Positions 4,699 to 7,600 of a DNA stretch of 64,000 bases are shown piece after piece. Source of the stretch: Escherichia coli O157:H7 (GTDB lineage Bacteria; Pseudomonadota; Gammaproteobacteria; Enterobacterales; Enterobacteriaceae). A program made the position numbers. The DNA lies in NCBI RefSeq assembly GCF_013167455.1, contig NZ_CP038328.1. One strand, written 5' to 3'. Each line of letters begins with the position of its first letter. The first letter of the stretch is position 1.

Positions 4699-7600
4699 TA
4701 ATGAGGGACGTATTTGTATTAGTCGCGACTTGATCTGACACATGGCCTTGAAAGGTTGAGAGTTACCGGTTTTGATATGAGTGTCGAATCCTTATCCAAA
4801 ACAAGAGGTAACTCTCATGCTTCATACTGCCAATCCCGTCATCAAACACAAAGCCGGTTTGCTCAATCTGGCTGAAGAACTCAGCAACGTATCAAAAGCC
4901 TGTAAAATCATGGGCGTTTCGCGTGATACGTTTTATCGTTACCGCGAACTGGTCGCTGAAGGCGGTGTGGATGCGCAGATTAATCGTAGTCGCCGCGCTC
5001 CTAACCTTAAGAACCGTACCGATGAGGCAACTGAACAGGCTGTTGTTGATTACGCCGTCGCTTTCCCGACACATGGTCAGCACCGGGCCAGCAACGAACT
5101 GCGTAAACAGGGGGTTTTTATCTCCGACAGTGGTGTCCGTTCTGTCTGGTTACTCCATAACCTTGAGAATCTCAAAAGACGATACTGAACAAATTTTATC
5201 AGGTGACGTTCCGTAAAAAGTTGTATGGAGTTCTCGATGCAGTCGGCGCGACTATCAGTACCCCCGCTGAACCCTGGACTATCGGGCCGCCGTACTGGGG
5301 CATGTCACCCTGGCGTGCCGCTGGTTTTCCGCTAATGGTTTATTTCCTCTTTCTTTCCCGGCAAGAATTTATTTTAATCCGGAAGGATTATTTATTTTCA
5401 GATAGGGACTCACATTAAACACGTAACATTTTAATTAATGCATGGCTGAATATGTATTACACAATGTCAGATATCGTAAAAGACCAGTGCAATTCTATGT
5501 AAACTCTCTGACTGTTCATTTTATTTGTTGTTTCAGGGTCGGAACTCACCCTCAATAAACAACTGAATACGAGTAGATATTCATCGTCTGAGCTATATGG
5601 CTTTACACAATAGCCGACATGTCTTTTCTCAGTCAGGAATTTTACTTTTCCTCACTACGAAGTTGACGACTTCGATATGGGATAGACTCTTAATTCAAGC
5701 AATTACTCTGCACAAGCATCAGGCAATCCAGCTCCAATATTTGTTATAAAATAATGCGTAACATTAATTTCACCAACAAAAAAAGGTTTACACCATCCCC
5801 TTGCCCTGGTATCTTACCATATTTACACCACACTTTTTTTGTATCTGGATCATTCTTTGATACGATTTTCGCCACTTGTTCCCTGGCCCTCACTGTCAAT
5901 GTTTTCTTAAACCTCCCCCCATCATCATTTGTTAGGGAAAAATAAGAAAAAAATAATCATCTTCTACATTTGTGTATATTGATATATCCACCGCTACGTG
6001 CGGAAAAAAATCTGGGAGCCATGTAAAAACTCCATCATTTTCTGGTATTGCCATATAGTTTATGTAATGTTTACTTACAAGAGATTCATCTTTGTATAAA
6101 TAAAGATAAGTAATTACGCATAAAACAACAATGATTATAATAGCAATAATAAATATTATCATCTTTGATAGATTACTTGAGATAGCCAGCATCTTGTAAA
6201 GCCTTTATCGTTTCTTTATGCTCTGGATTAATATAATCACTACATCTATCTGAGCAATCTGTTGTTGATGGACATGTCAACCCATGGTCATTTACAGCCA
6301 AGTCTTTTTTATTATCTTCAATCATTTCAGAATGGGATAGCTTTACTTTTCTGCCGTACATACCGAACAGATTTAACCCGTAATCTCTAATCTCTTTTTC
6401 ATAACCCAGCCCTTTCGCCGATCGGCTAACACCAGCGTCATTTAATTTAGACACTCGACAAAATGCCATACAATGGAAAAATTGATCAGTCCCACCTAAA
6501 TTTAATCTCTTCATATCTTCATAAGTATCAGATAATATATCCCATGCTCTTTGATGGTTTAGTTGATCTTTTCTTCTTATTAGCGCTACATCTGCGGGAC
6601 TTAACCCTAATGGATCAATACCATTCACCGGATTCAGCGGATACGCATACAGACTCCATCCCCCCTCCAGCCCTATCGGGTCCTGAGTGATATACCGCCC
6701 CTGCAACGGATCGTAGTACCGGTTCCGGTTGTAGTACAGCCCCGACTCCTTATCATACTGCTGCCCCGGCAGCCGGTACGGCTGGTGCAGGTGATGCGGG
6801 TTCTCCTCATTCAGCTGGTTGCCCCATTCATCATACTCCCCGCTCCACGCCGTATTGCCGTCTTCGCTGATGAGCGCCAGCGGCAGGCCCCGGTGGTCGC
6901 AGTGGTAAAGATGAACTTTTCTCGCCGGTGTGTATTCCGGCTCCACCTGTCTGGCCAGTTGCTCCACCGTCAGCCCGCACTGCGCAAGCCACGCCCGGCT
7001 TTCACTGCTCACGCGGTCTGCCCGGATTTCTTCCTCCAGTCTGTCCAGCAGCCGCACCAGTTCAGCCGGAAATACCACACCGTGCCCGTCCTCGCTCCCT
7101 TCCTGCTGCAGCTTCTCCGCCAGGCTGCGGCGCTGCGCTTTCTCCCGCTCACCGTTGTCTGTTTCGATGCGGATGAGCGGCGCGAAGCTTCCCGGCTCGT
7201 ATACCGTCTGGATACGCGTGGTGTCGGTCTGTACCGTCGTCAGCCGGTCGCCGTCCCACCCGTACCACGTCACCTCCGGTTTCCGCGACAGCGACATCCA
7301 TCCCGTCAGGTCACGCCCGCGACGCCACACCCGTTTCCCCGTCCGGCGGCCCAGCGGGTCGTAGAGGTAGCGGCTCTCGACCAGTGGCTCGCCATGCTGT
7401 ATCCGCGTGTAGAACACCAGGCGGTGCTGGCTGTCGTAGTGGTAGTGGTGGGTCCGCTCGTCGTCCGTCCGTATCACACCCGCCGGGATGCGGTCCGTCT
7501 TCTCCGTCAGCCTGCCGTATTCATCGTGTCGGTAGACATAGTGCGCATCCTCCGCGATGCGGTTATCCGGCCACGCCGTGAGCGTGCTGTCCGGGTGTAG

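What the first reader, a model, noticed from the sequence alone, without database searches (positions are those of the whole stretch)
5400..5931. ~530 bp strongly AT-rich stretch with no credible ORF downstream of the immunity candidate
The composition differs sharply from the flanking core genes, and only one marginal 63-aa ORF is present. Such stretches downstream of rhs genes often hold remnants of orphan toxin/immunity cassettes or H-NS-bound foreign DNA.
Basis: inference. Interest (0 to 1): 0.3.

Follow-up and report, generated by a model that had tools for sequence, protein, structure and literature searches.

The report
Broken immunity-gene tail plus non-coding trailer
The AT-rich, ORF-less stretch is the frameshifted second half of the Rhs immunity gene ybbD followed by about 370 bp of non-coding trailer at the end of a foreign, H-NS-coated toxin/immunity cassette in E. 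coli O157:H7; it is ordinary and largely already annotated in K-12.

Summary
Window 5400-5931 has 37.4% GC against 55% for the whole window, and its longest ORFs are 63, 51 and 50 aa. It is not a separate compositional unit, though: the low-GC block runs from 5337 to about 6650.

The window is the E. coli O157:H7 rhsD locus, and 4701-6700 is 99.75% identical to K-12.

The "immunity candidate" (86 aa, 5932-6192, minus strand) is only the 5' half of ybbD. Two 1-bp deletions in T8 tracts (plus-strand A7 runs at 5947-5953 and 5778-5784) break the gene. Restoring both gives a 163-aa protein that is 162/163 identical to the intact "YbbD family protein" of other E. coli strains. So 5703-5931, 43% of the finding, is the out-of-frame 3' half of ybbD.

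The remaining 5337-5702 is a non-coding trailer. It ends at ylbI, an rhs 5' fragment, and an IS481 fragment (ylbG) follows. I found no protein homologues outside E. coli, no Rfam hit and no codon-position signal. Its only paralogue is a ~200-bp module in another rhs locus, present in 81 genomes.

Published K-12 ChIP-exo places the near-identical sequence inside one H-NS/StpA-bound region. Several labs use the ybbD-ylbG spacer as a neutral integration site.

Verdict: decayed, silenced accessory DNA; already known; low interest.

The parts
5703..6192 (-). ybbD, the Rhs immunity gene, present here as a pseudogene of 490 bp (492 bp when intact)
   Evidence: Collinear with the K-12 pseudogene ybbD b0501. 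Intact 163-aa 'YbbD family protein' genes occupy the same place in strains GPEC1337 and E300082. The intact protein scores 379.6 bits against NCBIfam NF011298, cutoff 326. Restoring two T residues gives a protein 162/163 identical to the intact one.
5932..6192 (-).
   Evidence: NCBIfam NF011297 is an 86-residue model of this truncated form.
5947..5953 (-). Frameshift site 1: a T7 tract on the coding strand where intact alleles have T8; the deletion is shared with K-12
   Evidence: Alignment A1, column 240.
5778..5784 (-). Frameshift site 2: a T7 tract where both K-12 and the intact alleles have T8; the deletion is seen in the O157:H7 and O55:H7 lineage
   Evidence: Alignment A1, column 410. 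The 259-bp spans in O157 and O55:H7 rows also show it.
5703..5931 (-). Out-of-frame 3' half of ybbD, 229 bp, which is 43% of the finding
   Evidence: The three-frame translation shows YbbD residues 83-137 in frame 2 and residues 138-163 in frame 1.
5337..5702 (.). 366-bp non-coding trailer between the ybbD stop codon and ylbI
   Evidence: No feature is annotated under it in any listed E. coli record. It is at least 99% identical in 2689 genomes. The only protein hits to its longest stop-free frame come from E. coli itself. Rfam gives no match. GC is 35.5%.
5385..5584 (-). ~200-bp module inside the trailer, the only part with a paralogue
   Evidence: It is 84-86% identical to L006 3983-4185 in 81 genomes. 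There it lies 26 bp downstream of an unrelated 150-aa gene in a vgrG/rhsE-type locus and abuts the left end of an ISAs1/H-rpt element.
5639..5669 (-). Sigma-70 promoter-like site TCGTCA-19-TAAAAT
   Evidence: It is listed for the ybbD>ylbI spacer in the genomic-SELEX table of PMC3946193 and I located it in the sequence. The tool's own scan, which allows spacers of 16-18 nt, does not find it.
5486..5872 (.). Equivalent of the K-12 IhfA ChIP-exo region 528960-529347
   Evidence: PMC9948719 Table S3, with coordinates converted through the collinear alignment. No exact IHF consensus lies in the region.
5242..5336 (-). ylbI: a 95-bp fragment of the 5' end of an rhs gene, with start codon ATG changed to ATT and the Shine-Dalgarno region retained
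   Evidence: It is 79% identical to the 5' end of rhs at 10273-10369. K-12 annotates it as ylbI b4632. The Shine-Dalgarno and start region resemble the vgrG-rhs junction in L006.
4818..5188 (+). ylbG: N-terminal HTH fragment of an IS481-family transposase
   Evidence: Pfam HTH_29, E = 1.8e-20. It is 92% identical to annotated IS481 family transposases.
6173..10369 (-). Full-length rhs gene (1398 aa) whose C-terminal toxin domain is that of the K-12 orphan ylbH
5337..6650 (.). The actual low-GC block (35.3% GC): toxin C-terminal domain, ybbD and trailer
   Evidence: In K-12 the collinear sequence lies inside H-NS region 526939-529630 and StpA region 526956-529625.

Best explanation
The stretch is decayed, non-functional accessory DNA at the distal end of the rhsD element of E. 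coli O157:H7. It has two parts.

5703-5931 is the 3' half of the Rhs immunity gene ybbD. Two 1-bp deletions in T8 tracts put it out of frame, so translation stops after 86 of 163 codons.

5337-5702 is the non-coding trailer that came in with the low-GC toxin/immunity cassette. It ends where a relic rhs 5' fragment (ylbI) begins, and an IS481 fragment (ylbG) follows.

The identity of the sequence, both frameshifts, the existence of intact alleles and the lack of coding signal in the trailer are shown here. H-NS/StpA coating is shown by published ChIP-exo in K-12 and is inferred for this strain from the 99.75% identity over window 4701-6700. That the trailer has no function of its own is also an inference.
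For: Locus identity: window 4701-6700 is 99.75% identical to the K-12 ylbH-ybbD-ylbI-ylbG-selU region, and 5400-5931 is 100% identical to many O157:H7 genomes.

Intact 492-bp 'YbbD family protein' genes lie at the same position in GPEC1337 and E300082. The alignment shows the two T8-to-T7 deletions. Restoring them gives a protein 162/163 identical to intact YbbD. NCBIfam NF011298 matches residues 1-163 at 379.6 bits, and the related family NF007301 matches residues 20-153, so the C-terminal half is real protein sequence.

In a rank-spread sample of 59 carrier genomes, about 30% have the undeleted length, about 49% have one deletion and about 17% have two.

Trailer: no annotation in the listed records, no Rfam match, and only E. 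coli's own ORFs among 5.8 billion proteins. Differences between the two paralogous copies fall 6/5/4 across codon positions, with a stop codon and indels in the paralogue (my count on the alignment). Fold z-scores are only -2.1 and -1.75. Promoter- and terminator-like sites are no more frequent than in shuffled sequence.

GC is uniform across the toxin domain, ybbD and the trailer at 33-38%.

K-12 ChIP-exo gives H-NS 526939-529630 and StpA 526956-529625. Tn-seq gives 0 insertions in ybbD in LB (PMC9948719).

The ybbD-ylbG spacer is used as a neutral chromosomal integration site.
Against: The trailer is very uniform, at least 99% identical in 2689 genomes. One divergent strain has about 25 substitutions in the first 410 bp of ybbD but only 4 in the next 448 bp. 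That could reflect constraint rather than a recombination breakpoint.

A ~200-bp module recurs in a second rhs locus. RNA polymerase holoenzyme selected the ybbD>ylbI spacer in vitro (PMC3946193), and IHF ChIP-exo gives a peak inside the stretch. None of these rules out a cis-acting role.

I examined no transcription data for O157:H7.
Confidence: 0.85

Rival explanations
1. 5400-5702 holds the eroded remains of a further, separate orphan toxin or immunity gene.
For: A 64-codon stop-free frame lies on the rhs strand at 5460-5651. The stretch sits where orphan cassettes accumulate. The GC content matches that of the cassette.
Against: Only two E. coli ORFs from this same locus match that frame among 5.8 billion proteins. 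There is no rhs core fragment and no other paralogue in 5426 E. coli genomes at blastn sensitivity. The paralogous copy carries a stop codon and frameshifts, and shows no third-position bias.
Confidence: 0.05
2. The trailer is a functional non-coding element. Candidates are the promoter or leader of the former downstream rhs gene (ylbI), an sRNA, or a conserved cassette boundary that serves as the distal homology arm when Rhs toxin/immunity cassettes are exchanged.
For: An RpoD holoenzyme SELEX peak with TCGTCA-19-TAAAAT points towards ylbI. The ~200-bp module is shared by two different rhs loci downstream of unrelated genes. An IHF ChIP-exo peak lies in it. Sequence uniformity is high. Fold z-score is about -2.
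Against: ylbI is a 95-bp relic with ATT in place of ATG, so there is nothing left to express. The 19-nt spacer is poor, and AT-rich DNA binds RNA polymerase promiscuously in vitro. Rfam gives no match. The 22-mer from the most conserved part occurs in no other species representative of GTDB. Only 81 genomes carry the paralogue. Cassettes inserted in this spacer cause no reported defect.
Confidence: 0.08
3. The T-tract frameshifts are a switch rather than decay: phase variation, or transcriptional or translational slippage that still yields some full-length YbbD.
For: Both lesions are in T8 homopolymers. Spans of 258, 259, 260, 261 and 262 bp all occur among genomes. The cognate Rhs toxin domain in this strain is intact, with 1 aa difference from a strain that has intact ybbD, so some immunity might be needed.
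Against: T7 and T8 tracts are short for efficient slippage (general knowledge). The alleles look lineage-fixed: all listed O157:H7 genomes carry the same double deletion and the K-12 derivatives the same single one. Two independent corrections would be needed in O157. The locus is H-NS-bound in K-12.
Confidence: 0.04

Closest known systems
E. coli K-12 ybbD (b0501) pseudogene and the ybbD-ylbI/ylbG intergenic spacer of the RhsD element
   Same: The sequence is collinear and 99.75% identical over window 4701-6700. The first frameshift is the same, as are the trailer, ylbI and ylbG.
   Different: O157:H7 has a second 1-bp deletion at 5778-5784. In addition, the upstream toxin domain is fused to a full-length Rhs here, whereas in K-12 it is the orphan fragment ylbH.
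Intact YbbD family protein (NCBIfam NF011298; e.g. WP_000879785.1 in strain E300082)
   Same: Same locus, and the same sequence apart from the two missing T residues.
   Different: The window copy cannot encode more than the first 86 residues (81 native residues, then 5 out-of-frame residues).
Orphan Rhs toxin/immunity cassettes (Poole et al. 2011, PMC3150448; Koskiniemi et al. 2014, PMC3967940; both seen only as titles and abstracts)
   Same: The position distal to a full-length rhs, the low GC and the toxin-then-immunity order all match. Comparison of K-12 with O157 looks like a core-mediated recombination that fused an orphan toxin domain to the main gene (the mechanism is inferred).
   Different: The finding's own coordinates contain no rhs core fragment and no toxin domain, only an immunity-gene tail and a trailer.
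H-NS/StpA-silenced horizontally acquired AT-rich DNA
   Same: 37% GC, and it lies inside a 2.7-kb H-NS/StpA ChIP-exo region in K-12 that is protected from transposon insertion.
   Different: Binding has not been measured in this strain, whose upstream context differs.

Membership tests
YbbD family protein (NCBIfam NF011298, equivalog, 163 aa) | Full-length match above the curated cutoff of 326 bits | tested here: met
   The intact allele from the same locus in E300082 scores 379.6 bits over residues 1-163. The window sequence with two T residues restored is 162/163 identical to it.
YbbD family protein (NCBIfam NF011298, equivalog, 163 aa) | An uninterrupted reading frame, i.e. a functional gene rather than a pseudogene | tested here: not met
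   Two 1-bp deletions at 5947-5953 and 5778-5784 cause a premature stop at 5932-5934.
Separate orphan Rhs toxin/immunity cassette within 5400-5931 | An rhs core fragment with a C-terminal toxin domain | tested here: not met
   No similarity to rhs inside 5400-5931. The only rhs-like piece nearby is the 5' fragment ylbI at 5242-5336.
Separate orphan Rhs toxin/immunity cassette within 5400-5931 | A second immunity ORF, or a recognisable remnant of one, after ybbD | tested here: not met
   No protein homologues outside this locus. No codon-position bias between the paralogous copies.
H-NS-bound xenogeneic DNA | AT-rich composition relative to the genome | tested here: met
   37.4% GC against 55.2% for the window.
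H-NS-bound xenogeneic DNA | Physical H-NS occupancy | not testable with these tools
   Published K-12 ChIP-exo gives H-NS 526939-529630 and StpA 526956-529625, which cover the collinear sequence (PMC9948719 Table S3). An earlier SELEX table did not flag H-NS for this spacer. There are no data for O157.
Known structured RNA (Rfam 15) | A covariance-model match | tested here: not met
   No hit at E up to 1 within 5337-5931.
Insertion sequence or MITE | Terminal inverted repeats, or membership of a multi-copy family | tested here: not met
   Only short imperfect inverted repeats are present. There are 1-2 places per genome. The module is not part of ISEc1, because the other ISEc1 copy in L006 has a different left flank.

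The most novel reading that the evidence does not exclude
The ~200-bp module (5385-5584) is shared at 84-86% identity by two otherwise unrelated Rhs cassette ends, the rhsD locus here and a vgrG/rhsE-type locus in 81 genomes. It may be a conserved cassette boundary that, together with the relic rhs 5' fragment ylbI, supplies the distal homology needed to swap whole toxin/immunity cassettes between rhs loci or strains.
Probability: 0.05. Interest if true: 0.4.

Novelty: already known. Interest (0 to 1): 0.1.

Why it matters
It matters little in itself. There is a practical point: the 86-aa ORF treated as the RhsD immunity protein of EHEC (z0654 in PMC7216683) is a truncated half of a 163-aa protein, so functional or structural predictions made on it are unsafe. 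The result also shows that O157:H7 carries a full-length Rhs with an intact-looking toxin domain but no intact cognate immunity gene. That is a testable oddity, and H-NS silencing may explain it.

Tried and rejected
- The Rfam scan of 4500-7000 at E up to 1 found nothing in the stretch.
- The promoter/terminator scan found no more sites than in shuffled sequence.
- The repeat search found only short imperfect inverted repeats.
- RNA folding of the trailer on both strands gave z-scores of only about -2.
- A protein search with the longest stop-free frame of the trailer returned only E. coli ORFs from this same locus.
- A GTDB-wide scan with a 22-mer from the most conserved part gave one hit, an E. 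coli-like contig binned as Alistipes that is 99% identical to the window.
- A distant blastn search of PLSDB returned only near-identical copies on records that look like chromosomal pieces.
- I looked for homology between the trailer and the AT-rich region upstream of the main rhs gene, to test whether the trailer is an rhs leader. There was none at word size 7.
- The exact IHF consensus is absent from the stretch.
- I considered whether the ~200-bp module is part of the H-rpt/ISEc1 element it abuts in L006. I rejected this because the other ISEc1 copy there has a different left flank.

Full report
**Observation.** The stretch 5400-5931 has 37.4% GC. That puts it in the lowest 2.5% of 532-bp windows of a 64-kb window averaging 55.2%. 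Its longest ORFs are 63 aa (plus strand), 51 aa (minus strand) and 50 aa (plus strand). The description is therefore correct. The stretch is not a unit of its own, however. Low GC runs without a break from 5337 to about 6650 (35.3%). The edge at 5931 is only the stop codon of the 86-aa ORF.

**Where we are.** The 532 bases are 100% identical to many E. coli O157:H7 chromosomes and occur in 2868 of 5426 complete E. coli genomes. No feature is annotated under them in the listed records. The surrounding genes, from low to high coordinates, are:
- allR, allA, allS and mnmH/selU
- ylbG
- a 96-bp partial "hypothetical protein"
- the 86-aa ORF
- a 1398-aa "RHS element core protein"
- ybbP

This is the rhsD locus, read in reverse. 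Window 4701-6700 aligns to K-12 MG1655 at 99.75% over 2001 columns, covering ylbH, ybbD, ylbI, ylbG and the end of selU. In K-12, ylbH/ybbD is the orphan cassette that follows rhsD-ybbC. In O157 the same toxin domain is the C-terminus of the full-length Rhs, with 1 difference in the last 190 residues.

**Right-hand 43% (5703-5931).** K-12 annotates ybbD as a 491-bp pseudogene, equivalent to window 5703-6192 on the minus strand. Strains GPEC1337 and E300082 carry an intact 492-bp "YbbD family protein" gene at exactly this position.

The five-way alignment shows two differences of length. The window has T7 instead of T8 at column 240 (plus-strand A7 at 5947-5953), a deletion shared with K-12 and O111:H8. 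It also has T7 instead of T8 at column 410 (5778-5784), which K-12 does not share.

Putting one T back at each site gives a 163-codon frame that is 162/163 identical to the E300082 protein. Left as it is, the YbbD sequence steps through all three frames.

The intact protein matches NCBIfam NF011298 over residues 1-163 at 379.6 bits (cutoff 326). NF011297 is an 86-residue model of the truncated form. The related family NF007301 aligns to residues 20-153, so the C-terminal half is genuine protein sequence. Pfam has no family for it.

The first 229 bases "downstream" of it are the other half.

**How common the damage is.** A 261-bp query spanning both tracts from the intact allele was listed at even steps down the ranking of 2763 matching records. 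Of the 59 full-length rows:
- 18 (about 30%) span 261 bp, the undeleted length
- about 29 (49%) span 260 bp; these include the K-12 derivatives
- 10 (17%) span 259 bp; these include O157:H7 and O55:H7
- one row each spans 258 and 262 bp

. This is a rough sample, not a census. It shows that most carriers have a broken ybbD and that the lesions sit in the homopolymers.

**Left-hand 57% (5400-5702, really 5337-5702).** This 366-bp trailer runs from the ybbD stop codon to ylbI.

ylbI (5242-5336, minus strand) is a 95-bp copy of the first codons of an rhs gene. It is 79% identical to the start of rhs at 10273-10369. Its start codon is ATT in place of ATG, and its Shine-Dalgarno region resembles the vgrG-rhs junction in another locus. 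ylbG follows it and is the HTH fragment of an IS481-family transposase.

The trailer is at least 99% identical in 2689 genomes and has no annotation in the listed records. I found nothing that marks it as coding or as a known RNA:
- No Rfam match at E up to 1.
- No excess of promoter- or terminator-like sites.
- Fold z-scores of -2.1 and -1.75 on the two strands.
- The longest stop-free frame (64 codons, 5460-5651, minus strand) matches only two E. coli ORFs from this same locus among 5.8 billion proteins.

**The one paralogue.** About 200 bp (5385-5584) is 84-86% identical to a segment in 81 genomes. There it lies in a vgrG/rhsE-type locus near pptA. It starts 26 bp after an unrelated 150-aa gene and ends directly against the left end of an ISAs1/H-rpt element.

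It is not part of that IS. The other ISEc1 copy in the same locus has the same terminal sequence (CAGGGAAAGATCATCAG...) but a different left flank.

In the frame of the 64-codon segment, differences between the two copies fall 6, 5 and 4 at codon positions 1, 2 and 3. The paralogue also has a stop codon and indels (my count on the alignment). This is not a protein under selection.

A 22-mer from the most conserved part occurs in only one of the GTDB species-representative genomes. That hit is a contig labelled Alistipes that is 99% identical to this window, so it is E. coli DNA.

**What the literature adds.**
- ChIP-exo in MG1655 lists H-NS at 526939-529630, StpA at 526956-529625 and IhfA at 528960-529347 (PMC9948719 Table S3). 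Through the collinear alignment, the H-NS/StpA region covers window 5203-6700, and the IhfA region corresponds to about 5486-5872.
- The same paper's Tn-seq shows 0 insertions in ybbD in LB but 53 in the 93-bp ylbI. It uses ybbC-rhsH-ybbD as its example of a region protected by nucleoid proteins.
- An earlier genomic-SELEX table lists an RpoD holoenzyme site in the ybbD>ylbI spacer with TCGTCA-19-TAAAAT (PMC3946193). This maps to window 5669-5639 on the minus strand. The same table does not flag H-NS for that spacer.
- Three papers use the ybbD-ylbG spacer of MG1655 as a neutral integration site or landing pad.
- An in-silico study of EHEC EDL933 calls this gene RhsD (z0651). It notes a serum-amyloid-A-like fold for the toxin domain, which agrees with the weak Pfam SAA hit. 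It treats z0654 as the immunity protein without noting that the ORF is truncated.

**Explanation.** The stretch is the decayed end of a horizontally acquired low-GC Rhs toxin/immunity cassette. It consists of a broken immunity-gene tail and the cassette's non-coding trailer, bounded by relics of an rhs start and an IS. In K-12 at least, the whole block is covered by an H-NS/StpA filament.

The sequence identities, the frameshifts and the negative searches are shown here. H-NS occupancy comes from published K-12 data and is inferred for O157. Absence of function in the trailer is an inference. I put this explanation at 0.85.

**Rivals.**
- A further orphan gene remnant in the trailer: 0.05.
- A cis-acting element, such as a promoter or leader for the lost downstream rhs, an sRNA or a recombination boundary: 0.08.
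- Slippage-based switching of ybbD: 0.04.

**Comparison and novelty.** Everything here corresponds to features already annotated or measured in K-12: the ybbD pseudogene, ylbI, ylbG, H-NS binding and the neutral integration site. The O157-specific points are the second frameshift and the fusion of the toxin domain to the full-length Rhs. I rate it as already known, with low interest (0.1).

Noticed in passing
window 6173-10369 (minus strand) and 5703-6192 (minus strand): O157:H7 has a full-length Rhs whose C-terminal toxin domain differs by 1 aa from that of a strain with intact ybbD. Its own cognate immunity gene, however, carries two frameshifts. So an apparently intact toxin sits next to a dead immunity gene.
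   Followed up: partly
window ~6200-6700 compared with K-12 L002 6582-7660: Relative to K-12, the O157 locus lacks the rhsD toxin domain, ybbC and the core fragment of ylbH. The orphan toxin domain is fused to the main rhs gene. This is the outcome expected from recombination between the core repeats.
   Followed up: partly
window 4643-4814 (minus strand): A sub-threshold Rfam match to psRNA2 (RF02349) covers the full length of the model: 34.4 bits against a gathering score of 65, E = 4.4e-6. It lies across the selU 3' end and the selU-ylbG spacer.
   Followed up: no
window 5242-5336 (minus strand): ylbI is a relic of the first 32 codons of an rhs gene, the PAAR-like N-terminus. ATG has mutated to ATT and the Shine-Dalgarno sequence is preserved. 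No E. coli rhs gene has a closely matching 5' end, since no megablast hits to this part appeared.
   Followed up: partly
L006 1835-1860 and 4178-4200: In strain ampC_0069, one ISEc1 copy is inserted 17 bp into an rhs gene immediately downstream of vgrG. A second ISAs1 copy follows the ~200-bp module after a run of C residues. Both copies begin CAGGGAAAGATCATCAG.
   Followed up: no
alignment A1, columns 1-410 compared with 411-858: Strain GPEC1337 differs from the other strains at about 25 positions in the first 410 bp of ybbD but at only 4 in the following 448 bp. This suggests a recombination breakpoint near the end of ybbD.
   Followed up: no
L008 (CASFSC010000074.1): A 3995-bp contig in a metagenome bin labelled 'uncultured Alistipes sp.' is 99% identical to window 4068-6881, so it is E. 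coli DNA placed in the wrong bin.
   Followed up: yes
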